From Acidobacteriota bacterium (GTDB taxonomy: Bacteria; Acidobacteriota; Blastocatellia; RBC074), in contig JANPFP010000125.1 of the NCBI GenBank assembly GCA_031423495.1, positions 19,865 to 83,864 on the forward strand: a DNA stretch of 64,000 nt, in the 5' to 3' direction. Within the stretch, counting starts at the first letter, position 1. Each line of letters begins with the position of its first letter. The position numbers and the translations under genes were made by a program. Below, one piece after another: positions 2,667 through 20,037 of the stretch. The notes under the pieces are model-generated. The model ran no database searches and had not been told where the DNA came from. It worked only from the letters and a program-made list of their open reading frames with translations.

Positions 2667-3587
2667 ATGCCAATTCCTGATTATCAAACCTTGATGCTGC
2701 CGCTGCTCAAATATGCTGCTGATGAGCAAGAACACTCTTTGCGCGAAGCCATTGAATCGTTGGCTGATCAATTTCAACTCTCTGATGAGGATAGAAAAGA
2801 ACTACTTCCAAGCGGACAACAAGCTAGGTTTGATAATCGGGTTGGATGGGCGTGCACCTATCTGAAGAAAGCAGGTCTTTTAGAAGGATCAAGACGCGGG
2901 TATTTTAGGGCCACTGAACGAGGGCGTTCGGTATTGGGTAATGACCTTCAACGCATTGACCAAGCATACTTGCGCAAATTTCCTGAGTTTGTTGAATTCC
3001 AAAATCGCAGCAAAAGAAATTCTGACGAGGACGCGGTTTCACCTGAAATTGAGCAAAACGTTGAGATGACTCCAGAGGAATTAATTGAGTCTGCTCACCA
3101 AAGTTTGCGAGAAAATTTAGCTGCCGAGCTTTTGCAAACTATCAAAGGTTGTTCCCCTAATTTTTTTGAGCGCCTCGTCGTTGATTTGCTTTTGAAGATG
3201 GGCTACGGCGGCACTCGGCGCGACGCTGGCAAAGCTATCGGCAAGAGTGGAGATGGTGGAATTGACGGCGTCATCAACGAAGATCGGTTAGGTCTGGACG
3301 CTGTTTATATTCAAGCCAAAAGATGGGAAGGCTCTGTAGGCCGACCAGAAATTCAAAAATTTGTTGGCGCGTTACAAGGCCAACGAGCGCGCAAGGGCAT
3401 TTTTATCACTACATCATGGTTCACACGGGAGGCATTTGATTACGCTGGCAGAATTGAAAGTAAGGTCATTCTTATTGACGGCGAACAGCTTGCTCAATAC
3501 ATGATTGATTTCAATGTTGGTGTTTCTATCATCGCCAATTACGAACTCAAGAAAGTTGATCAGGATTACTTTACTGATGAACTATAA
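2667..3587 (+). CDS. mrr: Mrr-family methylation-dependent (type IV) restriction endonuclease
   Basis: 306 aa. Mrr_N-like winged-helix N-terminus. Mrr_cat core GKSGDGGIDGVINEDRLGLDAVYIQAKRW... is the Mrr-type PD-(D/E)xK variant (D..QAK). The gene is clearly AT-richer than its flanks. Confidence 0.75.
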   Translation: MPIPDYQTLMLPLLKYAADEQEHSLREAIESLADQFQLSDEDRKELLPSGQQARFDNRVGWACTYLKKAGLLEGSRRGYFRATERGRSVLGNDLQRIDQAYLRKFPEFVEFQNRSKRNSDEDAVSPEIEQNVEMTPEELIESAHQSLRENLAAELLQTIKGCSPNFFERLVVDLLLKMGYGGTRRDAGKAIGKSGDGGIDGVINEDRLGLDAVYIQAKRWEGSVGRPEIQKFVGALQGQRARKGIFITTSWFTREAFDYAGRIESKVILIDGEQLAQYMIDFNVGVSIIANYELKKVDQDYFTDEL

Positions 3588-3632: not shown

Positions 3633-4436
3633 ATGAATCAATTTCAGGGCGCAACGCTCTCGTGGGAACTCAAAGACGGATGTATCGAGCTCGCCTTGCA
3701 TCAGGAACCGGCGAACGAAATCGGCCTGCAAACATTGGCTGAACTCGAACGGTTCGTTGTTGCGCACGAGACGCTGCAACACGAGGCGCACGCGCTCATC
3801 ATTCACAGTGTGGTCAAGGCCGGTTTTTCGGCGGGCGCAGACTTGCGGGATTTATACGCGCAAGCCGATGCGATGGGATTCGCCAACGCAGCGCCGCAAG
3901 TGCGCGACTTTCTCAAGCGCATTCACGCCGTGATGAATACGTTGGACGCTTCGCCGCTGACGACGATTGCGGCAGTGCATGGCGTATGTTTTGGCGGTGG
4001 CTTTGAACTCGCGCTCGTCACCGATTTGATCGTAGCCGACAAGCTCGCGCGCTTTTGCTTTCCCGAATTGCGGCTGGGCTTGATTCCCGGTTTCGGCGGC
4101 ATTCCGCGTTTGCGGCGCGATCTGGGCAATGCGCTCGTCCGCGATTTGTTGCTCACCGGACGCAGCCTCAACGCCGCGCGCGCACAAGCCGTCGGCCTCG
4201 TGAGCCAATTAGTTGGCGAAGGCGATGCGCTCAAAGTCGCGCGCTTCACGGCGGCGCAGGTCAAGAAATTCGACCGTCAGACGAGCGCAGCGGCTAAACG
4301 ATTTATCAAACCGATTCCTTATGCGGAGTTAGAACAAGAGATTGAAATTTTTTGCGACCTCTTCACGCGACCCGCGACTGAAGCGGGTTTGCGCAAGTTC
4401 GTAGAAAGCACTGATAAACAACCTTATTTACCGTGA
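3633..4436 (+). CDS. Enoyl-CoA hydratase/isomerase (crotonase) family protein
   Basis: 267 aa. Crotonase-fold motifs GADLRDL and VHGVCFGGGFELALVTDLIVA. Confidence 0.75.
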   Translation: MNQFQGATLSWELKDGCIELALHQEPANEIGLQTLAELERFVVAHETLQHEAHALIIHSVVKAGFSAGADLRDLYAQADAMGFANAAPQVRDFLKRIHAVMNTLDASPLTTIAAVHGVCFGGGFELALVTDLIVADKLARFCFPELRLGLIPGFGGIPRLRRDLGNALVRDLLLTGRSLNAARAQAVGLVSQLVGEGDALKVARFTAAQVKKFDRQTSAAAKRFIKPIPYAELEQEIEIFCDLFTRPATEAGLRKFVESTDKQPYLP

Positions 4437-4456: not shown

Positions 4457-5458
4457 ATGACGAAAAAACTGAGAGCCAAAATCACTGCGCTGGGGACGTA
4501 TGTTCCGCCGCGCGTCGTCACCAATCACGACATCGAAAAGATGGTCGCCACCAATCACGACTGGATCGTAGATCGCACGGGCATACACGAACGCCACTGG
4601 GTCGAACCGGGTACGCCCGCGTCTGAGTTGGGCGCGCAAGCCGCTACGCTGGCGCTAAAACAGCGTGGCATCGAACCCGATGAAATCGAACTCATCATCG
4701 TCTCGACGGTGACGCCCGATATGATGTTCCCTTCGACGGCTTGCATGATTCAGCACAAGATTCGCGCGAATAAAGCGTGGGGCTTCGACATTCTGGCGGC
4801 GTGTTCGTCGTTTCTTTACGCGCTCACGACGGGCGCGCAATTCATCGAGAACGGTACGCATAAAAAAGTATTGATCGTCGGAACAGACGTGATGACGAGC
4901 ATCCTGAATCCTGAAGATAGAACTACGCTCGTGCTATTCGGCGACGGTGCGGGCGCGATTTTGTTAGAGCCTTGCGAAGAAGGCGAAGACGTTGGCCTGA
5001 TTGATTATCATCACGAAATTGACGGCGCGGGCGGGCAGCATTTGTATATGCCCGGCGGCGGCAGTTTGCATCCGTCTTCGGCTGAAACGGTCGCGCAGAA
5101 GATGCATTATGTTCATCAAAACGGACAGGCCGTTTTCAAATTCGCCGTGCGCAAGATGGAAGAACTCAGCACCGGCATGCTCGCTAAACACAACCTGACC
5201 GGCGACGATCTTGCGCTGTTCATTTCGCACCAGGCGAACATGCGCATCATTGACGCGACGGCCAACAAGCTGGGCTTGCCTCCTGAAAAGGTCATCAAGA
5301 ACATTCACAAATATGGCAACACGACGGCGGCGACGATTCCGCTGGCGATGAACGACGCGATCAATGACGGCAAGCTGAAAAAAGGCGATTTGGTTTTATT
5401 CGCGGCGGTGGGCGCGGGCTTTACGGCGGGTTCGGTGTTGCTGCGGTGGGCTTATTGA
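4457..5458 (+). CDS. fabH: 3-oxoacyl-ACP synthase III (KAS III, FabH-like)
   Basis: 333 aa. Active-site Cys context [10 protein letters not shown]. His/Asn region HQANMRII...[12 protein letters not shown] as in FabH. Confidence 0.8.
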
Positions 5459-7491: not shown

Positions 7492-7734
7492 ATGAAAACT
7501 CTCGAACAAATCATTGATGAAATCCTGACGCTCGCGGCGACCCATTTCAAAGTCGAACGCGCGGCGCTCACACCGACCGACGACTTTTTCAAAACGCTGG
7601 GCATTGACAGTTTGCAGGCGCTCGAATTGCTCACACGGCTCGAAAACCATTTCGGTGTCGAACTGCCTGATTACGAAGTGCAAGGCGTAAGCGACTTTCG
7701 CACGCTGGCCGAGCGCATCGAAGCCCGGCTGTAA
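7492..7734 (+). CDS. Acyl carrier protein (phosphopantetheine-binding)
   Basis: 80 aa. Helix II motif [11 protein letters not shown] with the Ser attachment site. Confidence 0.75.
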
Positions 7735-7838: not shown

Positions 7839-9602
7839 ATGAAGTCTTGCTCACTGGCCTTGTGCCTGTGGTTGTGTTCTGTTGTTTCGCTTGCGCAAAT
7901 CAACGCGCGACTGGTCGGTCAACTCGATCCTTATCCTGACGTCAAAAATCGTTATGCCGATGTGTGGGGCGAGGGGAATTACGCCTATCTCGCGTCTTAT
8001 CGTGGCAGCGGCGTGATGATTATTGATATTTCAGACCCGCGTAATCCGCGCCAAGTGGGTTTTTATGACGCGCCCAACTCGGCGCAATTCCGCGATGTGA
8101 TTGTTAAAAATGGCATCGGGTATTTTTCGAGTGACGACGGCCTGGGCGTACACATCGTGGATGTGCGCGACCCGGTCAATCCGCGCTTGCTGAGTACAAT
8201 CACGCCTAACGAACAAGGCTTTAGCTCGGTTCACGAACAGCATTTAGACAACGGCTTTCTGATCGAATCGGATTCGCGTACGAACGTGATTAAAATTTTT
8301 GACGTGCGCGATCCGGCGCGTCCGGTGTTTAAGTGGGACGTGACGGTCAACAGCACGCGCGAAGCCGTGCATAACACCTTCGCGCAAAACGGGCGGATGT
8401 ATACGTCGGGGCTGAATGGCACGATGGATGTTTACGATATTTCGAATCTGGCGACGACTGCGCCGCGCCGCTTGGCGACGATCAACAGCGGCGGCGGTTC
8501 ACATAGTTCGTGGGCGACGAATGACGGAAAAATTCTCGCCAGTTGCCGCGAATCTTTCGGCGGTGACGTGCGGCTTTATGACATGACAGATGGCGTGAAT
8601 CCGAAGCTGGTCTCGACGATCACGCTCGCCTCTATCGGTCTCACGACCGAACGCGACGGTTATAGCGCGCACAATCCCGTGATCGTCGGCAACATGCTTT
8701 TCGTCACGTGGTATCAGGCGGGTACGTTGGTGTGGGACATCAGCAATCCCGCGACGCCGGTTTATCTGGGCGGCTATGACACTTTCTCCGGCCCGGTGAA
8801 TTGTCCGGCTGATTGCTATGAAGGCAATTGGGGCGTTTATCCGTTCAGCGGACTCGACCGCGTGCTGTTGAGCGATCTAGACGGCGGGCTGTTTATTGTG
8901 GATTTCAGCGCCCTCATCCCGAACGCCAAAGTCGTATCGTCCGCCAGTTATAGTTTCACCAGCCTCGCGCCGAATTCCATCGCGACCGCGTTTGGTGTCA
9001 ATCTGGCGAATGCCACCAGCGCTGCGAGTGCGATTCCGTTGCCGACGACTTTGGGTGGGGCACGCATTGCCGTGCAGGACGTGACGGGCACCGAACGCCT
9101 TGCACCGCTGTTTTTCGCCTCGCCCGGACAGATCAATTTTCAGCTTCCACCGGACACGCAACCCGGCCCGCTGTTGTTGAAATTCACCGACGCCAGCGGA
9201 CGCATTACGCAATCCGCCGCCGTCGCGCAATCGGCTGCGCCTTCGATTTTCACCCTCGACGCCAGCGGCAACGGAGCCGCCGCTGCTACAGACGCTATCA
9301 CCGGAGCCTTGCCGCCTTATGCCGCGTTGCGCGCCAACGGTGAGGCGAACATCCTTGCGGTGTATTTCACGGGCTTGGGCGCGGATGCCACCGACAGCGC
9401 GACGGCTAACGTAGCGAGTTCGGTGAGCGTGTTCATCAACGGTTTGCCTGCCACGGTGCAATACGCCGGACGCGCGCCGGGCTTTGTCGGGCTGAATCAG
9501 TTGAACATTGTGTTGCCTGCCGGGTTATCAAGTGGTGCGCAACGCTTGCGTATCGGCAGAGGCGGCTTGTTCAGCAACGAAACTACGATTGCGATTCGAT
9601 GA
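7839..9602 (+). CDS. Secreted LVIVD-repeat beta-propeller protein with Acidobacterial-type C-terminal domain
   Basis: 587 aa. Signal peptide. Repeated units GVMIIDISDPRNP / LGVHIVDVRDPVNP / VIKIFDVRDPARP / GTLVWDISNPATP. The C-terminus (...QLNIVLPAGL..GAQRLRI) resembles the TIGR03437/Soli_cterm tail. Confidence 0.55.
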   Translation: MKSCSLALCLWLCSVVSLAQINARLVGQLDPYPDVKNRYADVWGEGNYAYLASYRGSGVMIIDISDPRNPRQVGFYDAPNSAQFRDVIVKNGIGYFSSDDGLGVHIVDVRDPVNPRLLSTITPNEQGFSSVHEQHLDNGFLIESDSRTNVIKIFDVRDPARPVFKWDVTVNSTREAVHNTFAQNGRMYTSGLNGTMDVYDISNLATTAPRRLATINSGGGSHSSWATNDGKILASCRESFGGDVRLYDMTDGVNPKLVSTITLASIGLTTERDGYSAHNPVIVGNMLFVTWYQAGTLVWDISNPATPVYLGGYDTFSGPVNCPADCYEGNWGVYPFSGLDRVLLSDLDGGLFIVDFSALIPNAKVVSSASYSFTSLAPNSIATAFGVNLANATSAASAIPLPTTLGGARIAVQDVTGTERLAPLFFASPGQINFQLPPDTQPGPLLLKFTDASGRITQSAAVAQSAAPSIFTLDASGNGAAAATDAITGALPPYAALRANGEANILAVYFTGLGADATDSATANVASSVSVFINGLPATVQYAGRAPGFVGLNQLNIVLPAGLSSGAQRLRIGRGGLFSNETTIAIR

Positions 9603-9782
9603 GAAGAAAAAAATCCATAATTTTGAATTCATGCTAGACATCACCAAGTTGGATAACTATCATCCTACGCGCCGTCCTGGTAAATAACGCTGATGTCACC
9701 ACGCAGCGTTCAAGACAAACAGATTTAACGCCGACACTGACTGAAGTTAAGACTTATTGATCGGCAAACTCAACGGTGATTT

Positions 9783-10460
9783 ATGAAAAAGAACGTATCC
9801 GCCTGTCGCTTCCACCGCACGTGGCTTTCGGTTGGTTTGCTGGCTGTTCTTGTTGCTTCGGCGACTTTCGCGCAAGCGCCTGACGGCATCATTGCCAACT
9901 TACCGATTGAAGAAAAAACTGCTCCTGTTGCGCCGAGCAAACCGACTCTCGCGGTCGAAAACTGCAAGATCAAAAACTTCGGACAAGTTACCGATCAGTA
10001 TTTTCGCGGCGCGCAACCTAAGCCGGAAGAGTACCAGCAACTCGCGGCGCTCGGCGTGAAAACCGTGATTGATTTGCAGGCGGAAACCTCATCGTTCGCC
10101 AAAGCCAAGGCCGAAGCCGCCGGATTGCTCTATATCAATGTGCCGATGAGCGACACGAAATATCCCCCGCAGGAAACCATTCAACGCTTTCTTGAGTTGG
10201 TGAAAGACCAGACGAATTTCCCAATCTTTGTGCATTGCCGTGGCGGACGCCATCGCACCGGCGCATTTACGGCGGTTTTTCGTATGACTTTTCAAGGCTG
10301 GGACGTTGAAAAGGCCTACGATGAAATGAAGGATTACGATTTTTATACGCGGTGGGGACACAAGGCGATGAAAACTTTTGTCTTCGATTATTGGACGAAG
10401 CTGCAAACCCAACGCAAAGAAACCGCCGCGCAAACTCCGCCCGCGACCGTCGTTCCCTAA
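9783..10460 (+). CDS. Secreted protein-tyrosine/dual-specificity phosphatase family protein
   Basis: 225 aa. Signal peptide. CX5R P-loop VHCRGGRHRTGA. Confidence 0.75.
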   Translation: MKKNVSACRFHRTWLSVGLLAVLVASATFAQAPDGIIANLPIEEKTAPVAPSKPTLAVENCKIKNFGQVTDQYFRGAQPKPEEYQQLAALGVKTVIDLQAETSSFAKAKAEAAGLLYINVPMSDTKYPPQETIQRFLELVKDQTNFPIFVHCRGGRHRTGAFTAVFRMTFQGWDVEKAYDEMKDYDFYTRWGHKAMKTFVFDYWTKLQTQRKETAAQTPPATVVP

Positions 10461-10640: not shown

Positions 10641-12386
10641 GTGTCAAACTCTCGCATGATAAAACTTGAACAACACTCTTCACTCGGTTCGGCCTTGCGT
10701 GCTGCGATGGCGGAGTTCGCCAACGAAACCTGCCTGATCGAAGCTGACCGTGAACGCGAAAACCATCGCTGGATTTATGGTGAATTCAACGCGCGTGCTT
10801 TGCCGTTGGCGCAATTCATCCAACAATGCGGCTTCGGGCAACGCGGCTTGGCGGCGAACGCACGCGGCGCGATTATCATGACTAATCAGTCGCGCTGGCC
10901 GTTGGCGGCTTACGCGATTTTTCACAGCGGCGGCGTGCTGGTTCCGTTGGATTACAAACTCTCAGCGCCCGAACATCTCGCATTGCTCAAACATTCGCAA
11001 GCCGAATTGCTCGTCACCGAATTCCATATCTGGCGCGGGATTACGCAATGCCCAGACTTTGCTGAACTCACGCAACTCAAGACCGTCATCGTCACTGACC
11101 CGCCGAAAAAAGGCGATCTGCTCAACGCCGTACCGTTTGACGAAGCGCGGGCCGAGGGCGAGCCGCGTTTCGTCGAGCGCCAGCGCAGCGATTGGGCTTG
11201 CATCGTCTATTCATCCGGCACGGGCGGGCGTCCGAAAGGTTGTGTGCTGACGCATAACAATTACCTCGAACAATGTGCGTCGCTGACTTCGCTTTATCCG
11301 TTCTGGCCGGGCGCGAATTATCTGAGCATTTTGCCGACCAATCACGCGATTGATTTTATGGTGGGCTTTCTGGGGCCGTTCGTATGCGGCGCGACCGTCG
11401 TACACCTGCGCACCTTGCGGCCTGAGTTTGTGCGCGAAGCCTTCACGCGCTTCAAGATCACTTACGTAGCCCTCGTGCCGCTCATCCTCAAAAACCTGCA
11501 AGCCGGACTCGAACAACGCTTCGCCGACTTGCCGCCGTTCAAACGTTTCGTGTTTGAACGCCTGCGATCATTGAATAAAACGCTGACGCGCGAACGTCCG
11601 AATCTCAACCTTAGCCGCAAGCTGCTCAAACAAGTTCACGCGGCGTTTGGCGGGGAACTGCGCGCGATCTTCACGGGCGGCACGTTTTGTGATCCGCAGA
11701 TCATTCAGTTTTTTTACGACTTGGGCATACAGGTTTCGATTGGCTACGGCCTGACTGAAGCGGGCACTACGATTACGTTGAACGACTTGAATCCCTTTCG
11801 CGCCGATACGGTGGGCAAGCCGCTGCCCGGTATGGAAGTCGAAGTTCGCAACCCCGATGTTGACGGCATTGGCATGGTCGCGGTACGCAGCGACACCGTG
11901 ATGTCGCATTACCTAGACGACCCTGAACTCACCGCCGAAACGATTCAGAACGGCTGGCTGTTGACCGGTGATTTGGGACGCTTCGACGCAACGGGACATT
12001 TGCAGCTTTTCGGACGCGCCAAAAACATGATCGTCACCGAAGAAGGCAAAAACGTTTATCCCGAAGACATCGAAAACGCCTTCGGCACACTGCCCGTCAA
12101 AGAGTATTGCGTCTTCGCGGCGAATTACATTTGGCCCGAACGTTCGATGCTCGGCGAAAAACTCGTCATCGTCCTGCGTTTGAACGAAGGCCAAAGCTTC
12201 ACCGACGAACTCAAACAACAACTCGCGCAATCAAACAGTAAGCTGCTCAATTTCAAACGGGTGAGCGGTTATGTGATTTGGGACGAAGACTTCCCGCGCA
12301 CGGCTTCGCTGAAAATCAAACGCATTGCGCTGGCTGAAGCCATTCGCGCGAAAGTGGATCGGCAGGCGGCTTTACAAGAGTTGTGA
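10641..12386 (+). CDS. AMP-dependent synthetase/ligase (acyl-CoA synthetase family)
   Basis: 581 aa. [14 protein letters not shown] motif, YGLTEAG and GDLG regions. Confidence 0.75.
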
Positions 12387-12432: not shown

Positions 12433-13650
12433 ATGAGAGTCACTGAAATCACAGTTAAAGGCTTGTTCGGACTTTTCGATCACGTCATTCCGCTCAATTT
12501 AGAAGACCGCATCACCATCATTCACGGGCCGAATGGTGTAGGGAAAACTGTATTATTAAAGATGCTAGATGCGACTCTAAATGGAAAGTACGAATATCTG
12601 TGGGATATTAGCTTTAGTGAGTTCCGGGTGCGTTTTGACGACTCTTTGTCACTCCTTGTCCGTGGTAATGAGGAAAAGTTAGGGCTATTTTTGGTTGATG
12701 TGGAGAAGATTATCGAACGACACGTCTTACCGATTAAACGGGTTAAACCAGAGCGTCAACCTTGGATGAATGCACTGGAACGCCGCCGACTAACCAGAGA
12801 ATTAGATTATCCAGAATGGCTTCGTGAGCGCCAAAATGCCGCCCCAGTAAATTTGATTGAAACACAACGACTTATTTTACTGAACACTTTTGAGTACGCG
12901 GATGAACGGCGACAGACTGGCAGATATGTTGAGAAAAAAGATCACTACCTAATGATCACCGAATGTGCTCAAAAGTTATCTGAAAAAGTGAAAGCCATAT
13001 TAGCTGAGTCAGCCGAAAAATCTCAAAGTTTGGATCGAACTTTTCCTGCTCGGCTTTTGCAGCATAATTCAATATCAGTTTTGTCTGGTACTGTAATTAA
13101 AGACGAATTGAAACGCCTTGAGCTTGAACGAGAACGTTTAGTTAGTATTGGACTTCTTGATGCCGCAGAATTGGAGGTTTCCAGCGAGTTGCCGATTGAG
13201 CCGCAGAATGAAAGAGTTCTTTCCATCTACATTCAGGATGCCAAAGAGAAACTAGGCGTCTTCAAAGATATTGCTGAACGCCTTAGCCTGTTGCAACAAA
13301 TTATTAACAAGCGATTTCTATTTAAGAAGCTGAGTATTAACAAAGAGCAAGGATTTATTTTTACCTCTGACATCACGACTACTCGCATTCCCCTTGATGG
13401 CCTGTCTTCTGGGGAACAGCATGAGTTGGTGCTTCTTTACGAATTACTTTTCAATACCAAACCTAATTCACTGATTCTTATTGATGAGCCGGAAATTTCG
13501 TTACACGTCGCTTGGCAAATGGGTTTTCTGCGTGACTTGCAGGAAATCTGCCAGCTTGCCTCATTGGATGTGATTATCGCCACGCATTCACCTGAAATCG
13601 TCAGTGACCGTTGGGATTTGACGGTAGAATTAAAAGGCCCGACGAAATAA
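12433..13650 (+). CDS. ABC-type (SMC/RecF/OLD-like) ATPase, AriA-like component of a PARIS-type defense pair
   Basis: Probable start MRVTEITVKGLFG. Walker A GPNGVGKT. Coiled-coil insertion. ABC signature LSSGEQ. Walker B LILIDEPEISLH. H-loop ATHSPE. The gene is markedly AT-richer than the window. It ends 5 bp before the DUF4435-like gene. Confidence 0.65.
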   Translation: MRVTEITVKGLFGLFDHVIPLNLEDRITIIHGPNGVGKTVLLKMLDATLNGKYEYLWDISFSEFRVRFDDSLSLLVRGNEEKLGLFLVDVEKIIERHVLPIKRVKPERQPWMNALERRRLTRELDYPEWLRERQNAAPVNLIETQRLILLNTFEYADERRQTGRYVEKKDHYLMITECAQKLSEKVKAILAESAEKSQSLDRTFPARLLQHNSISVLSGTVIKDELKRLELERERLVSIGLLDAAELEVSSELPIEPQNERVLSIYIQDAKEKLGVFKDIAERLSLLQQIINKRFLFKKLSINKEQGFIFTSDITTTRIPLDGLSSGEQHELVLLYELLFNTKPNSLILIDEPEISLHVAWQMGFLRDLQEICQLASLDVIIATHSPEIVSDRWDLTVELKGPTK

Positions 13651-13655
13651 CCGTT

Positions 13656-14522
13656 ATGAGAGAGCTTCTCAGCCCAGCAACGATTGCCAATCGCATTCGC
13701 ATGAAACGATCACAGTTTCACGGCGCTTTCCTGATCGTCGAAGGCGACACTGATTCACGTTTGCTCCGCAACTTTGTCGTGACGGGAGATTGTCAGTTAG
13801 TAGGCGCTTATGGGAAGGACAATTTGTTCGGTGCGCTGGCGATCCTGAATGCCGAACAACGCACAGGTGTGCTGGCGATTGCGGACGCTGATTTCAAGCG
13901 GCTCGAAGGTCAATTACCTGCCATGCCCAACCTGCATTTCACCGATACGCACGATCTCGAAACGATGATCTTGCAATCGCCTGCGTTGCAAAAGGTTCTT
14001 TCTGAATTCGGCTCTGAACTTAAACTCAAGACGTTCGCCGAAATGCAGCAAGGCACTTTGCGCAGCGTTTTGTTGGCGAGTGGCAGCCGCGTGGGTTATT
14101 TGCGTTGGGCGTCATTGCAGCAACAGTTCGCCTTGAAATTCGAGGGCGTGAAGTTCAGCAAATTCATCAGCGACGAAACGCTGGCGATTGACGATGCCAA
14201 GCTGGTCAAGGCGGTGAAAGATCACTCTCAAGCCCATTACCTGAACGACGCTGACCTGCTCGCGTCAATGGCGCAGTTGCACGATGCGCAACACGATCAA
14301 TGGCAAGTTTGTTGCGGCCACGATTTGGTCGAAATTCTATCGGCTGGATTGCGCAAGGCCATCGGCACGAACGACGCAAAACAAGTAGAGTCGGAACGCC
14401 TCAATGGAGCATTGAGGCTGGCGTATGAGTTCGCCTATTTCTGCGCGACTTCGCTTTACGCCGCTATCAGGGAATGGGAAGCTGCCAATCCGAGGTATCA
14501 AGTTTTTCCTCGTAACGCATAG
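13656..14522 (+). CDS. DUF4435/TOPRIM-like (OLD-family nuclease-like) protein, AriB-like partner of the upstream ATPase
   Basis: 289 aa. N-terminal FLIVEGDTDSRLL (E...DxD Toprim-like signature typical of DUF4435). Translationally linked to the ATPase. Confidence 0.55.
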   Translation: MRELLSPATIANRIRMKRSQFHGAFLIVEGDTDSRLLRNFVVTGDCQLVGAYGKDNLFGALAILNAEQRTGVLAIADADFKRLEGQLPAMPNLHFTDTHDLETMILQSPALQKVLSEFGSELKLKTFAEMQQGTLRSVLLASGSRVGYLRWASLQQQFALKFEGVKFSKFISDETLAIDDAKLVKAVKDHSQAHYLNDADLLASMAQLHDAQHDQWQVCCGHDLVEILSAGLRKAIGTNDAKQVESERLNGALRLAYEFAYFCATSLYAAIREWEAANPRYQVFPRNA

Positions 14523-14642
14523 TTACGATTGTTCGCAAACCACCTTTCGGAAAACGTTATGCAGGTCAACACAGGCAAAGCGCGCAAAGTGTATGACGCA
14601 GTGATCGTAGGCTCAGGCGCGGCGAGCGGCGGCTTGGCTGTG

Positions 14643-15593
14643 TCAAGAAAGGAAAAGTCCGGGCTGAAGCGCTTCGCGTTTGCGCTTGGCTGAAGGCAAT
14701 TCGTCGGTTGGCATTTCTAGCGACGCTCCTTTGAATTTTGGATAGAGCGCGCTGAGTCGCGCAATGTTTTCGCGTAAAGCTGTGCAATACTCTTTGTCAA
14801 TTTCGACGCCGATGGAGTTGTAGCCGACCGCCTGGCAAGCGGCGATGGTTGAGCCTGATCCGCAAAACGGATCAAGGATAGTTCCTGCTTCCAGCGGCAA
14901 CAGGCTGCGCACGAGAATGCGCATCAGGTGTTGCGGCTTTAGCGTAGGGTGGTTGGAAATAGCTTCTTCGACTGCTGGCGTTTTGCCGCTGGGAATAATG
15001 TCGGGCAACGGTTGATCTTCGTTGAGTCTGCGCAATGCTCCCGTTCCATATTTTCTTAAGTTTTGGGCGACGGTTTTTTCTTCGATAGGCTTGCGAAAAA
15101 GCATCCAAGGTTCATAAGCTCCACGTGGCGTGACGCACACTTCGGGGAACTCATTTTCTGCGAGCTTGGGGCGGTCGCCGCCGCGAAAGCCGCGATAGAC
15201 GCGCATCAAGGCACCGCGCACTTCAAAACCCGCTTCAGCCATGCCGCTTTGCACCAAGTGTTGCAACATCGGCGTGCCTGCGAGCAAAACGTGTCCGCCC
15301 GGTACGAGAATGGGCAGCAAGGCTTCGCCGAATTCTTTGAAGTAAACACGCACGTGTTCACGCTCTTGCGCTGACAACGTAGTGAAACGAGGTAAAGGCG
15401 CGCGCTGGCTGCCGCCGATGTTGGGCGGAATGCGCCACACGCCGCCGCGCCCGTTACGCAACTTAGTCATCTCGTTCGGCAGAAACTCGACAATGCCGAA
15501 AGGCGGATCAGTGCAGACCCCATGCAAGCTGGCAGGCGCTTGCGCACGGAGCCAGGCAAAACAATCAGCGTGATAAAGGGTGTATGGAGTCAT
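14643..15593 (-). CDS. Beta-class DNA N6-adenine/N4-cytosine methyltransferase (type II R-M modification subunit)
   Basis: Start taken at internal Met (MTPYTLYHADCFAWL). Motif IV TDPPFGI near the N-terminus, HPTLKP, motif I FCGSGSTIAA near the C-terminus, giving beta-class order (PF01555-like). Confidence 0.8.
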   Translation of the reverse strand: MTPYTLYHADCFAWLRAQAPASLHGVCTDPPFGIVEFLPNEMTKLRNGRGGVWRIPPNIGGSQRAPLPRFTTLSAQEREHVRVYFKEFGEALLPILVPGGHVLLAGTPMLQHLVQSGMAEAGFEVRGALMRVYRGFRGGDRPKLAENEFPEVCVTPRGAYEPWMLFRKPIEEKTVAQNLRKYGTGALRRLNEDQPLPDIIPSGKTPAVEEAISNHPTLKPQHLMRILVRSLLPLEAGTILDPFCGSGSTIAACQAVGYNSIGVEIDKEYCTALRENIARLSALYPKFKGASLEMPTDELPSAKRKREALQPGLFLS

Positions 15594-15656
15594 TACTGTG
15601 ACTTTCACATATAGTTGAAAGACTGTCAAGAAGGCAGTTGATAGTATCCCGAAACA
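15594..15656. promoter_or_regulatory. Divergent promoter/operator region between methyltransferase and HTH-nuclease genes
   Basis: 63-bp AT-richer spacer between divergently transcribed genes, one of which encodes an XRE HTH. A likely C-box-type autoregulatory site, not directly identified. Confidence 0.3.
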
Positions 15657-16547
15657 ATGAGTGAAGCTCAAAAAATCATCGGCGCTTATGTGCGAGCCTT
15701 GCGCGAGCAGCGCGGCTTGTCGTTGGAAGCCTTAGCTGCTCAAGCCGACATCAGCTATCAATATCTCTCAGGCGTAGAAACCGGCAAACAGAATTTTAGT
15801 GTGCAAGTGCTGGAAGCGTTAGCGCGCGCGTTGGACCTTCCTATCAGGACTTTGATGGTCGGAGCTTACGACTTGGCCGCAGGAGCAGCGCCTCCAAGAT
15901 TGCACAAAGAGTATTTCAGGCCACAAGCGCCATTGCCACCCGGACTGACGCTCGCACATTTAGAAAACGCTGCCAATCAAACGCAAGCCATCATCCATCG
16001 CATCAATCGAAACCTGAGTGTAGAAGCCGGGCAAACTTTGCAATCGCTTATTCAGGGCAATAATTTTTCGGGTTTGGTTTCGAACATTTTTAGCAACTCA
16101 CTGGATGCGTTTTCGCCTTACAAGCACAACCATAGTCAACGTTACCCTGACTTGATTTATCAACCGGGCAAAAAAGGCGCGGCGGTTGGGCTTGAAGTGA
16201 AAGTTACGATCAACGCTGGTAAAGGGGGCGAAAGTCACAATGGTCATAGCGGTTGGCACGTTATTGCTTGCTACCATTTTGTTGAAAACGGTGATATTCA
16301 ATTTATCCACTTTATGTTTGCCCAACTGAATGGACACCAGCATTCAGAGTCTGACTGGAGCTATGTTGGCAGTAAGGTGAACGCAGCCACAGGCAGTCGG
16401 CGAACCGAAACTTATACGACCACATTGGCAGGAACTACGAAATTGCGAGATGGTTCGGTTTATCTGGATACCGGCAAAGTTGATTTTTCCCATTGGCGGC
16501 AAGCGCGCCAAGGAGAGCCTCCCGTTTGGTCGCTCTATGCTAAGTAA
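15657..16547 (+). CDS. XRE-family HTH fused to a putative PD-(D/E)xK nuclease domain (candidate restriction endonuclease with built-in controller)
   Basis: 296 aa. N-terminal HTH_3 (LSLEALAAQADISYQYLSGVETGKQN). The C-terminal domain has YPDLIY...GLEVKVT, matching PD-x(n)-E-x-K. Divergent to the MTase. Lower GC. Confidence 0.45.
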   Translation: MSEAQKIIGAYVRALREQRGLSLEALAAQADISYQYLSGVETGKQNFSVQVLEALARALDLPIRTLMVGAYDLAAGAAPPRLHKEYFRPQAPLPPGLTLAHLENAANQTQAIIHRINRNLSVEAGQTLQSLIQGNNFSGLVSNIFSNSLDAFSPYKHNHSQRYPDLIYQPGKKGAAVGLEVKVTINAGKGGESHNGHSGWHVIACYHFVENGDIQFIHFMFAQLNGHQHSESDWSYVGSKVNAATGSRRTETYTTTLAGTTKLRDGSVYLDTGKVDFSHWRQARQGEPPVWSLYAK

Positions 16548-16595
16548 ACTGAACTATCAATCGTCCCTAATTAACACCTGTTTACGAAAGTTGAA

Positions 16596-17438
16596 ATGAT
16601 GAAACTTTATCGAACCACGCACGGCCCCGTTCTCGAAGATCGCGGCGACCACTATCAACTGCCCGAATCTGATTGGGACGTATTGCTCAATCGCGGCGAT
16701 CACGAACACGTGTTGACGAGCATGTCGCGGCGCGCGACGCGCATTCACAACTTCACGATCAATGATGACGTACTCGCGCCGATCGGTACGCAGGAAGTAT
16801 GGGCGGCGGGTGTGACCTATTACCGCTCGCGTACGGCGCGGATGGAAGAATCGAAGGACGCAGGTGGCGGCAGCTTTTATGATCGCGTATACGATGCCGC
16901 GCGGCCTGAGTTGTTTTTCAAGGCTACGCCGCCGCGTGTTGCCGGGCCGGGGCAGAAAGTGCGCATTCGCAAAGATTCAAAGTGGAACGTGCCTGAACCT
17001 GAGTTCACGCTCGTGGCGAATGCGCAAGGTCAGATTATTGGCTACACGATTGGCAATGACATGAGTTCGCGCGACATCGAGGGCGAGAACCCTTTGTATT
17101 TGCCGCAGGCGAAATGTTACGCGCAAAGCTGTGGCCTTGGCCCGTGCGTGCTGCTGGCGAACGGCAATCCGATGCCGCGCGAAACCGCAATCACGATGGA
17201 TATTTTGCGCAACGGCGCGACGGCCTTTCACGGCGAAACGACGCTCACCGAACTCAAACGTACGCCCGAAGAACTGATCGAATATCTCTTCCGCGACAAT
17301 CATTTTTCTACGGGTGTATTCCTGCTTACCGGCGCGGGCATCATTCCGCCTGACGAATTCACGCTGCAACCCGACGACGAAGTGCGCATCACTATCGAAC
17401 CCATCGGCACGCTCGTGAATTACGTCGTGCAAGGCTGA
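16596..17438 (+). CDS. Fumarylacetoacetate hydrolase (FAH) family protein
   Basis: 280 aa. FAH-fold pattern ([10 protein letters not shown]..., [25 protein letters not shown]..., GTL). Confidence 0.7.
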
Positions 17439-19160: not shown

Positions 19161-19592
19161 ATGAGAGGTAAGAGTATGAAAGTTTTTATTAGTTACGCTG
19201 ACACCGATCGTGAGGTGGCGCAGCGCGTGACGCAAAGCCTGAAAGCCGATGGCTTGTCGGTCTGGTCTGACGAAGACGAAGTTTTTCCGGGCGATAACTG
19301 GGCGGCGAAGGTAGCGCAGGGCGTGGAAGAAGCCGATGCGATTGTCGCTTTGCTGACGCCCGAATCGCTGCATTCACGTTCTGTGCGCTCAGACATCAAT
19401 TACGCGCTGGGCAAAAAAGCATTGAAGGACAAGCTCATTCCCGTGTGGTTGGGCGGAGAAGATTCCGCTCAACAAGAAAGTTTCCCGTGGATTTTGCGCC
19501 ACTTACCGATGATTCAACTGCTGGATAACGAACAGGATGAAGTCGGATTCAAACGTATTGCGGACGCGCTGCACGCGGCTCCTGCGCATTAA
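19161..19592 (+). CDS. TIR-domain-only protein 1
   Basis: 143 aa. MKVFISYADTDREVAQRV...LSVWSDEDEVFPGDNW...EADAIVALLTPESLHSRSVRSDINYAL is the canonical bacterial TIR/TIR-like (DUF1863) arrangement (FISY..D, conserved acidic W...D, alpha-C with S..W...E). Confidence 0.7.
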   Translation: MRGKSMKVFISYADTDREVAQRVTQSLKADGLSVWSDEDEVFPGDNWAAKVAQGVEEADAIVALLTPESLHSRSVRSDINYALGKKALKDKLIPVWLGGEDSAQQESFPWILRHLPMIQLLDNEQDEVGFKRIADALHAAPAH

Positions 19593-19623
19593 GCCATTGT
19601 TTTCACGCACGACGTGAGAGGCA

Positions 19624-20037
19624 GTGATGCTACCAACCGAATTGTTTCTCTCCCATTCCAGTCAGGATCAAGCCTTTGTCGATCCATTGGTTGCGGTGTT
19701 GCGTCGCCACGGCGTCCCGGTTTGGTATAGTCCCACGAATATCATCGGCGCGCAGCAATGGCACGATGAAATCGGTAAGGCGCTGAAACGATGCGATTGG
19801 TTTTGTGTGGTGCTTTCGCCGCAAGCCGTCGCCTCGACCTGGGTCAAACGCGAAACGGTTTACGCCTTGAACGACCGCCGTTATGACAATCGCATTGTCC
19901 CGCTGCTTTATCAGCCTTGCGCTCACGACAACCTTTCGTGGACGCTCAGTTCTCTGCAATTCGTAGACTTTTCGCAACAACTCGAAGACGGCTATCGCCA
20001 ACTTCTGCGCACTTGGGGGCTGGGTTATCAACTATAA
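19624..20037 (+). CDS. TIR-domain-only protein 2
   Basis: 137 aa. LFLSHSSQDQAFVDPLVAVLRRHGVPVWYSPTNIIGAQQWHDEIGKALKRCDWFCVVLSPQAVASTWVKRE... matches TIR_2 (FxSHSS.D...L...L...G..vw.d...i..G..w...I...l....vvlSp...S.W...E). Confidence 0.7.
   Translation: MMLPTELFLSHSSQDQAFVDPLVAVLRRHGVPVWYSPTNIIGAQQWHDEIGKALKRCDWFCVVLSPQAVASTWVKRETVYALNDRRYDNRIVPLLYQPCAHDNLSWTLSSLQFVDFSQQLEDGYRQLLRTWGLGYQL

What the first reader, a model, noticed from the sequence alone, without database searches (positions are those of the whole stretch)
12433..14522. PARIS-like two-gene defense module: ABC ATPase (AriA-like) plus DUF4435/TOPRIM protein (AriB-like) in an AT-rich islet
Gene 1 has the full ABC/SMC-type ATPase motif set split by a coiled-coil insertion: Walker A GPNGVGKT, signature LSSGEQ, Walker B LILIDEPEISLH, H-loop ATHSPE. 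Gene 2 starts 5 bp after it and opens with FLIVEGDTDSRLL, the E...DxD Toprim-like signature of DUF4435 proteins. This ATPase+DUF4435 architecture is that of PARIS (AriA/AriB), an abortive-infection system triggered by phage anti-restriction proteins such as Ocr. It also resembles split OLD/AbiL-type modules. Both genes are visibly lower in GC than the ~60% background, consistent with horizontal acquisition. The module sits directly beside a type II R-M system, which fits the anti-anti-restriction logic of PARIS.
Basis: partly seen in the sequence, partly recalled or inferred. Interest (0 to 1): 0.7.

Follow-up and report, generated by a model that had tools for sequence, protein, structure and literature searches.

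The report
PARIS (AriA/AriB) anti-phage gene pair
Two adjacent genes encode an intact, distant relative of the known PARIS anti-phage system (an ATPase sensor plus an RNA-cutting Toprim nuclease), so this is an ordinary new member of a known, widespread defence family.

Summary
Gene 1 (12433-13650, 405 aa) and gene 2 (13656-14522, 288 aa) are intact, on the same strand and 5 bp apart, and every quoted motif is present.

- Only ariA is strongly AT-rich (42.4% against 54.4% for the window); ariB is at 52.6%.
- The pair is not a recent islet. It holds the same chromosomal position in related Acidobacteriota.
- The adjacent probable R-M pair is a separate 2.06-kb indel that a close relative lacks, so there is no evidence of functional coupling.

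AriA residues 78-175 are hypervariable and are probably the trigger sensor.

Verdict: new member of a known kind, low interest. Defence activity, trigger and RNA target are inferred, not tested.

The parts
12433..13650 (+). ariA: 405-aa ABC ATPase of the AAA_15/AAA_21 type, the probable sensor/scaffold subunit
   Evidence: Pfam AAA_15 71.9 bits over its full length and AAA_21 60.8 bits. PADLOC's best models are AriA. The best PDB sequence hit is E. coli AriA at 4e-16. The AF2 model (pLDDT 82.6) has AriA chains as its top 16 Foldseek hits.
12526..12549 (+). Walker A motif GPNGVGKT. K38 corresponds to E. coli AriA K39.
   Evidence: P33, N34, G35, G37, K38 and T39 are invariant in 30 homologues; G32 is nearly invariant and position 36 varies.
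12664..12957 (+). Hypervariable insert of AriA (aa 78-175), the probable trigger-recognition region. It contains the conserved Q-loop island ETQRL at 12859-12873.
   Evidence: Mean pairwise identity is 26% here against 59% for the rest of the protein. Its length ranges from 45 to 152 aa across 79 homologues. An overlapping stretch (window 12574-12999) finds no nucleotide match in close relative L092, although the flanks are 80-87% identical. pLDDT is below 50 at aa 108-112 and 146-171. The role is inferred by analogy with the poorly conserved pore residues of E. coli AriA (PMC11464382).
13402..13419 (+). ABC signature motif LSSGEQ (aa 324-329)
   Evidence: The motif aligns to LSSGER of E. coli AriA.
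13471..13506 (+). Walker B/D-loop LILIDEPEISLH. E352 corresponds to E. coli AriA E393.
13579..13596 (+). H-loop ATHSPE (H385)
   Evidence: H385 is invariant.
13656..14522 (+). ariB: 288-aa DUF4435/Toprim protein, the probable nuclease effector
13728..13766 (+). Toprim motif FLIVEGDTDSRLL. E29 and D33 correspond to E. coli AriB E26 and D30.
   Evidence: E29 and D33 are invariant in alignments A1 and A3. The hhalign alignment to E. coli-type AriB gives the residue mapping. Residue roles come from PMC11464382.
13884..13895 (+). Toprim DxD motif (DADF). D77 and D79 correspond to E. coli D88 and E90.
13947..13961 (+). THDLE motif. H99 and E102 correspond to E. coli H119 and E122.
14310..14324 (+). 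CCGHD motif. G221 and H222 match the invariant G233-H234 of the E. coli-type set by eye only, not by alignment. Its role is unknown.
   Evidence: G221, H222 and D223 are invariant; G233 and H234 are invariant in A4. The hhalign alignment does not extend this far.
14522..16583 (.). Adjacent but separate element: a 2062-bp indel. It carries an N6/N4 DNA methyltransferase (14643-15593, -) and an HTH-fused 296-aa candidate restriction enzyme (15657-16547, +).
   Evidence: Relative L006 has 175 bp here, between AriB and the FAH gene. The MTase scores 266 bits on PADLOC MTase_II. The C-terminal 216 aa give a weak REase_II hit, E 1.9e-4. Homologues of both genes sit side by side on small Klebsiella plasmids.

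Best explanation
This is a two-gene PARIS system of the AAA_15 + DUF4435 kind, resident in the chromosome of an Acidobacteriota bacterium.

The mechanism is inferred by homology with E. coli PARIS. AriA, an ABC ATPase with a helical coiled-coil insert, assembles into an oligomeric scaffold that holds the Toprim nuclease AriB inactive. A phage protein binds AriA in an ATP-dependent way, probably at the hypervariable insert (aa 78-175). AriB is then released, dimerises and cleaves host tRNAs. Translation stops and the infection aborts.

Shown here:
- gene integrity and strict pairing of the two genes
- family membership by profile and by fold
- conservation of all catalytic residues
- purifying selection and co-evolution of the two proteins
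- hypervariability of the AriA insert

Inferred only: the complex and its stoichiometry, the trigger, the RNA target and the abortive-infection outcome.
For: - Detection rule. The published rule needs adjacent genes with AAA_15 at 32 bits or more (or AAA_21 at 27 or more) plus DUF4435 at 27 or more (PMC9122126). The window scores 71.9, 60.8 and 44.9.
- PADLOC. The best models are AriA (90 and 84 bits) and AriB (68.7 bits, full length).
- PDB sequence search. Gene 1's best hit is E. coli AriA at 4e-16, against 2e-5 for OLD.
- Catalytic residues. AriA K38 and E352 align with K39 and E393. AriB E29, D33, D77, D79 and E102 align with E26, D30, D88, E90 and E122.
- Pairing. An AriA homologue lies directly upstream of AriB in 79 of 79 genome loci where upstream DNA is present, usually with overlapping stop and start codons. 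The same holds in more distant plasmid and P2-like phage homologues.
- Co-evolution. AriA-core and AriB pairwise identities correlate at r = 0.93 over 79 pairs.
- Selection. dN/dS is 0.12 for AriB and 0.09 for the AriA core.
Against: - Nothing functional was tested.
- Sequence identity to the only characterised PARIS system is very low: 14-18% in structural alignments.
- Profiles of this AriB clade never reach E. coli AriB by hmmsearch. hhalign links them only weakly (E 0.004, probability 8%).
- Foldseek TM for AriB is only about 0.52.
- The pair is embedded in a conserved lipid-type gene cluster in related Acidobacteriota. In L003-L005 its stop and start codons overlap those of non-defence genes, which is unusual for a mobile defence cassette.
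- No relative of this clade was found in IMG/VR viral contigs, whereas E. coli PARIS is typically carried by satellites or phages.
Confidence: 0.85

Rival explanations
1. The pair belongs to a different ABC-ATPase/Toprim defence family: class 1 OLD, Gabija (GajA/GajB), AbiL (AbiLi/AbiLii), MADS3-4, or Septu/retron PtuAB.
Against: AriA models score best and over the full length, and AriA and AriB structures win by wide margins. At E 0.01 or better, gene 2 hits only DUF4435 in Pfam, with no RloB, Toprim_Old or DUF4276 match. Across the related loci no third gene family recurs in more than 19 of 82, and the window's own neighbours carry no HNH, UvrD-helicase or reverse-transcriptase domain. ATPase and Toprim are separate genes, unlike OLD and GajA.
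Confidence: 0.05
2. The pair is a domesticated chromosomal module with a non-defence role in this lineage, for example a toxin-antitoxin-like stress or RNA-turnover function. This would explain why it keeps a fixed position inside a conserved gene cluster.
For: In the window and three other Acidobacteriota MAGs the pair holds the same position after the orthologous AMP-binding gene (76-79% identical), within an AMP-binding/ECH/KASIII/ACP cluster. In L003-L005 it overlaps downstream SnoaL2/DAGK genes. Oscillatoriales cyanobacteria show a similarly fixed site between a Metallophos/SbcD-like gene and fmt. No viral-contig relatives were found.
Against: The flanking context differs completely between phyla, and no third gene is conserved beyond 19 of 82 loci. 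The pair evolves much faster than its flanks: AriB dS is 0.77 against 0.32 for the adjacent FAH gene, and AriA has a hypervariable insert. Persistent low GC in 75 of 75 loci and other defence-type genes nearby (Mrr, MTase, TIR) fit an arms-race defence gene. Distant homologues sit on plasmids and in a P2-like phage beside its integrase.
Confidence: 0.06
3. The pair is an inactive remnant of a PARIS system.
For: AriA is shorter (405 aa) than most homologues, which run to about 440-460 aa. Its insert is 98 aa against a median of 135.
Against: Both ORFs are intact with all catalytic residues. dN/dS is about 0.1. Even shorter inserts exist in intact relatives, down to 45 aa, and L092's AriA is 373 aa. 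The AF2 models are confident.
Confidence: 0.03

Closest known systems
PARIS (AriA/AriB) of E. coli B185; structures 8UX9 and 8V45-8V49
   Same: Both are two-gene cassettes with the ATPase gene first. The ATPase is an AAA_15/21 ABC ATPase with a helical insert, and the partner is a DUF4435 Toprim protein. Walker A K, Walker B E, signature motif, H-loop and all five Toprim acidic residues are conserved. These are the best structural matches for both proteins. As reported for PARIS clades, the AriA insert/pore region is hypervariable.
   Different: Identity in structural alignments is only 13-18%. The AriB clades cannot be linked by HMM search. AriA is 405 aa against 464, with a shorter insert. 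The pair sits at a chromosomal site conserved among related Acidobacteriota, rather than in a P4 satellite or P2 phage hotspot. Trigger and tRNA targets are unknown.
AAA ATPase + DUF4435 pairs on plasmids and in Yersinia phage vB_YenM_31.17 (a P2-like phage)
   Same: The gene order and sizes are the same. Their AriB proteins are 23-30% identical to the window's over 85-94% of its length.
   Different: They are carried on mobile elements, next to CI/integrase in the phage. None has been characterised experimentally, as far as I could find.
OLD-family nucleases: class 1 P2 Old, class 2, and Gabija GajA
   Different: There the ATPase and Toprim are fused in one polypeptide, and the Toprim is of the Toprim_Old type rather than DUF4435. 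Gabija needs the GajB helicase, which is absent here.
Septu/retron PtuA
   Same: A related AAA_15/21 ATPase that forms oligomeric scaffolds. It is the second-best structural family for gene 1 (E about 1e-10).
   Different: Its partner is an HNH nuclease (PtuB), not a Toprim protein, and TM is only about 0.4.

Membership tests
PARIS (AriA/AriB) | Adjacent genes that pass the published detection rule: AAA_15 at 32 bits or more, or AAA_21 at 27 or more, together with DUF4435 at 27 or more | tested here: met
   AAA_15 71.9, AAA_21 60.8 and DUF4435 44.9 bits, with a 5-bp gap on the same strand. The rule comes from PMC9122126.
PARIS (AriA/AriB) | AriA has intact ABC ATPase catalytic motifs, including Walker A K39 and Walker B E393, which are required for defence in E. 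coli | tested here: met
   K38 and E352 align to K39 and E393. The signature motif and H-loop are present and invariant in homologues. Residue roles come from PMC11464382.
PARIS (AriA/AriB) | AriA fold (ATPase head plus helical insert) is closer to AriA than to other ABC ATPases | tested here: met
   The top 16 Foldseek hits are AriA chains, with the best at E 4.5e-18 and TM 0.67. PtuA follows at 5e-11 and TM about 0.4.
PARIS (AriA/AriB) | AriB has a DUF4435 Toprim fold | tested here: met
PARIS (AriA/AriB) | AriB has the metal-binding acidic residues E26, D30, D88, E90 and E122 | tested here: met
   E29, D33, D77, D79 and E102 are invariant or nearly so. The mapping comes from hhalign, whose overall score is weak (E 0.004), though all three motifs align in register.
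PARIS (AriA/AriB) | ariA and ariB co-evolve as a unit | tested here: met
   Pairwise identities correlate at r = 0.93 (Spearman 0.73) over 79 pairs. Pairing holds in 79 of 79 loci.
PARIS (AriA/AriB) | AriA hexamer sequesters three AriB monomers | not testable with these tools
   No multimer prediction or biochemistry was available.
PARIS (AriA/AriB) | Activation by a phage-encoded trigger such as Ocr, with ATP-dependent release of AriB | not testable with these tools
   This needs phage assays or pulldowns. Only the hypervariability of the presumed sensor region is shown.
PARIS (AriA/AriB) | AriB cleaves host tRNAs and causes growth arrest | not testable with these tools
   This needs tRNA sequencing or in vitro cleavage.
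OLD family class 1/2 (P2 Old, Gabija GajA) | ATPase and Toprim_Old domains in a single polypeptide; for Gabija, also a GajB helicase partner | tested here: not met
   There are two separate genes. The only Old hit is PADLOC E 0.0034 over 63 aa, and Pfam gives no Toprim_Old hit. The annotated neighbours are an AMP-binding enzyme, a methyltransferase, an HTH protein and an FAA hydrolase, none a helicase.
AbiL | The AbiLii partner is of the RloB type (PF13707) | tested here: not met
   Gene 2 hits only DUF4435 in Pfam, and only AriB and Old in PADLOC.
   SMC_N scores 19.5 bits against a cut-off of 40. The window's neighbours are an AMP-binding enzyme and a methyltransferase. An SbcD-like neighbour occurs only in 19 of 82 cyanobacterial loci.

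The most novel reading that the evidence does not exclude
This Acidobacteriota/Cyanobacteria AriAB clade may be a chromosomally fixed PARIS lineage that diversifies in place. Its AriA insert (aa 78-175) would act as a swappable specificity cassette, exchanged by recombination between alleles. Two observations point this way: an overlapping stretch of ariA finds no nucleotide match although its flanks are 80-87% identical, and AriB's dS is 2.4 times that of the adjacent housekeeping gene. Its very divergent AriB (about 15% identical to the E. coli protein) may also recognise a different RNA target or respond to a different class of trigger than DNA-mimic anti-restriction proteins.
Probability: 0.25. 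Interest if true: 0.4.

Novelty: new member of a known kind. Interest (0 to 1): 0.2.

Why it matters
PARIS has been reported in about 5% of prokaryotic genomes, but it has been characterised only in E. coli. This locus adds a well-documented, very divergent member from a poorly studied phylum. It also offers natural allelic series: the window, L092, L006 and L093 share 78-83% identical AriB proteins, and in the one pair where both AriA genes are complete (window and L092) the inserts are unrelated. Such series could be used to map what determines trigger specificity. It does not change how PARIS is understood.

Tried and rejected
- **Sequence link from the window's AriB to solved AriB.** phmmer, a 30-sequence clade profile and a broadened profile with plasmid and phage homologues all failed to reach E. 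coli AriB. They gave only spurious matches to de novo TIM barrels and a marginal RNase M5 hit. The Yersinia-phage and Salmonella-plasmid AriB proteins did not hit either. I made the link in three steps: I rebuilt the E. coli AriB sequence from a Pseudoalteromonas homologue's PDB alignment, ran hhalign, and compared structures.
- **Net positive charge of the AriA insert.** This would be expected if it binds acidic DNA mimics. There is no signal: the mean is -1.3 per 100 aa and the window's value is +2. Dropped.
- **A conserved third gene.** None was found. The largest neighbour family occurs in 19 of 82 loci and is lineage-specific.
- **Mobile-element scars.** There are no tRNA genes, Rfam hits or convincing flanking repeats or terminators.
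- **Viral contigs.** No relatives were found. The scan is pattern-based, so absence is weak evidence.
- **Numbering error.** One search used a residue numbering that was off by 36 aa, because the long TTG ORF was taken. Its variable-region numbers are superseded.
Full report
**1. The observation**

The region holds two intact ORFs on the same strand. Gene 1 starts at ATG 12433, preceded by GAAAGAGAGG, and ends at 13650 (405 aa). Gene 2 starts at ATG 13656, 5 bp later, and ends at 14522 (288 aa).

Pfam gives AAA_15 (1e-19, full length) and AAA_21 (3e-16) for gene 1, and DUF4435 (1.6e-11) for gene 2. SMC_N is far below its threshold, at 19.5 bits against 40.

The GC statement needs correcting. 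The window averages 54.4% GC. ariA is 42.4%, the lowest 1200-bp stretch in the whole 64 kb. ariB is 52.6% with GC3 of 61%, which is indistinguishable from its neighbours.

**2. Identity of the two proteins**

- **PADLOC.** The best models are AriA for gene 1 (90 bits; 84 bits over the full length of the AAA_15-type model) and AriB for gene 2 (68.7 bits, full length). Gene 2 has no other hit except a marginal Old match.
- **Detection rule.** The published operational definition of PARIS is adjacent AAA_15 at 32 bits or more (or AAA_21 at 27 or more) plus DUF4435 at 27 or more (PMC9122126). The pair meets it.
- **PDB sequences.** Gene 1's best hits are the E. coli AriA chains at 4e-16. OLD and PtuA follow at about 1e-5. 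Walker A K38 aligns to K39 and Walker B E352 aligns to E393. Both residues are required for PARIS function (PMC11464382).
- **AriA structure.** An AF2 model (pLDDT 82.6) returns AriA chains as its top 16 Foldseek hits, the best at E 4.5e-18 and TM 0.67. PtuA follows at 5e-11 and TM about 0.4.
- **AriB catalytic residues.** I recovered the E. coli AriB sequence through a Pseudoalteromonas homologue and ran a profile-profile alignment. Its overall score is weak (E 0.004), but it aligns all three motifs in register:
  - VEGDTD with VEGRHD (E29/D33 to E26/D30)
  - DADF with DREF (D77/D79 to D88/E90)
  - TDTHDLE with TLGHSLE (H99/E102 to H119/E122)

  These residues are invariant or nearly so across close and distant homologues.

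**3. The two genes as a unit**

A scan of one genome per GTDB species found 237 relatives. Of the 80 loci kept, all 79 that include upstream DNA have an AriA homologue directly upstream of AriB, mostly with overlapping stop and start codons. More distant homologues (23-30% identity) keep the same ATPase-then-DUF4435 order. They occur on plasmids of Bacillus, Salmonella, Rouxiella, Aliivibrio and Streptomyces, and next to CI and integrase in a P2-like Yersinia phage.

Pairwise identities of the AriA core and AriB correlate at r = 0.93 over 79 pairs. No third gene is conserved: the largest neighbour family occurs in 19 of 82 loci and is lineage-restricted. Against close relatives, dN/dS is 0.12 for AriB and 0.09 for the AriA core, so both genes are under purifying selection.

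**4. The AriA hypervariable insert**

Residues 78-175 (nt 12664-12957) average 26% pairwise identity, against 59% for the rest of the protein. Their length ranges from 45 to 152 aa; the window has 98 and the median is 135. The only conserved islands are EPxW and the Q-loop ETQRL.

Against the close relative L092, the flanking parts of ariA are 80-87% identical at nucleotide level. The stretch 12574-12999 finds no nucleotide match at all. At protein level the core is 77% identical, the insert 18% and AriB 83%. The AF2 model is disordered at aa 108-112 and 146-171.

This matches the published remark that the pore residues of AriA, which bind the trigger Ocr, are poorly conserved among PARIS clades. 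I therefore take the insert to be the trigger-recognition element. That is an inference.

**5. Genomic setting**

The nearest relatives are Acidobacteriota MAGs. The window keeps their gene cluster, with these protein identities to L003:

| Gene | Window position | Identity to L003 |
|---|---|---|
| AMP-binding 1 | 267-1934 | 74% |
| ECH | 3633-4433 | 80% |
| KASIII | 4469-5455 | 83% |
| ACP | 7492-7731 | 86% |
| AMP-binding 2 | 10656-12383 | 76% |
| AriA | 12433-13647 | 40% |
| AriB | 13656-14507 | 64% |

In three such MAGs the pair sits at exactly this position. It is therefore a long-standing resident that evolves faster than its flanks, not a recent islet.

Low GC relative to flanks is a property of the whole family. 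It holds in 75 of 75 loci for AriA (mean -9.7 points) and in 73 of 75 for AriB (mean -6.7 points). Between the window and L006, AriB has dS 0.77 while the adjacent FAH gene has 0.32. This hints at allelic exchange at a fixed locus.

**6. The R-M neighbour**

L006 (AriB 83% identical) runs from AriB straight into the FAH gene, with 175 bp between them. The window has 2062 bp there (14522-16583), carrying the methyltransferase and an HTH-fused 296-aa protein. Other relatives have different cargo at the same junction:

| Relative | What follows AriB |
|---|---|
| L006 | FAH gene directly (175 bp gap) |
| Window | MTase plus HTH-fused protein (2062 bp), then FAH |
| L092 | Unknown 330-aa ORF, then an 82%-identical MTase |
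| L093 | GMC oxidoreductase, then the FAH gene |
| L094 | A long ORF in the same position; the contig ends inside it and Pfam was not looked up |

The junction is thus a variable spot.

The methyltransferase is solid (PADLOC MTase_II, 266 bits). The restriction-enzyme assignment is only probable. Its N-terminal HTH resembles R-M controller proteins. Its C-terminal 216 aa have no Pfam hit and a weak REase_II hit (E 1.9e-4). Homologues of both genes are adjacent on 4.9-kb Klebsiella Col plasmids.

PARIS works without any R-M system in the cell, and its known trigger Ocr targets type I R-M and BREX. The adjacency is best read as clustering of defence genes. An Mrr gene at 2667-3587 and two TIR genes at 19161-20037 lie in the same region.

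**7. Verdict**

This is a PARIS system of the AAA_15 + DUF4435 type. It is very divergent from the characterised E. coli system (13-18% identity in structural alignments) but has every testable defining feature. Complex formation, trigger, RNA target and abortive outcome are inferred by homology and remain untested.

It is a new member of a known kind. Interest is low to modest. The most useful aspect is the natural series of closely related alleles: AriB is 78-83% identical across them, and the two complete AriA genes (window and L092) have unrelated inserts.

Noticed in passing
window 2667-3587 (+): An Mrr-type restriction gene (Mrr_N + Mrr_cat) lies in a low-GC patch. It is inserted between the AMP-binding and ECH genes of the conserved cluster, where relatives L003-L005 have only a 45-47-aa ORF.
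   Followed up: partly
window 19161-19592 and 19624-20037 (+): Two tandem small proteins consist only of a TIR_2 domain (E 1e-25 and 1e-26), with weak ThsB-like hits. They may be a further defence element 4.6 kb downstream of ariB.
   Followed up: no
window 14522-16583: This 2062-bp indel relative to L006 carries an N6/N4 methyltransferase and a controller-like HTH fused to an uncharacterised 216-aa domain. Homologues of both occur as an adjacent pair on 4.9-kb Klebsiella/Citrobacter Col plasmids such as NZ_CP040037.1, which suggests an unannotated type II restriction enzyme family.
   Followed up: partly
L092 2465-3457: In a close relative, a 330-aa ORF between ariB and the orthologous methyltransferase has no Pfam hit and only a marginal PADLOC hit (DrmMI, E 0.037).
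   Followed up: no
L033 3213-9864 and 18 other cyanobacterial loci: In Oscillatoriales the ariAB pair lies directly downstream, on the same strand, of a Metallophos/SbcD-like gene. In L033 that gene is preceded by Uma2 and an ATP-dependent DNA ligase. The pair is followed by fmt in 18 of the 82 loci, 13 of which also have the SbcD-like gene. This is a second example of a lineage-fixed chromosomal site.
   Followed up: partly
window 13656-14519 versus 16596-17435, compared with L006: Synonymous divergence of ariB (dS 0.77) is about 2.4 times that of the adjacent FAH gene (dS 0.32) in the same genome pair. This suggests allelic exchange or a different history for the defence genes.
   Followed up: partly
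window 7839-10460: An LVIVD-repeat secreted protein and a tyrosine-phosphatase-like gene lie between the ACP and the second AMP-binding gene. Relatives L003-L005 have only short or no ORFs there. This is another lineage-specific insertion in the cluster.
   Followed up: no
alignments A1 and A3 searched against PDB: AriB-clade profiles give apparently significant hits (down to E 5e-10) to de novo designed TIM barrels. This is most likely an artefact of idealised repeated beta-alpha units, not homology.
   Followed up: no
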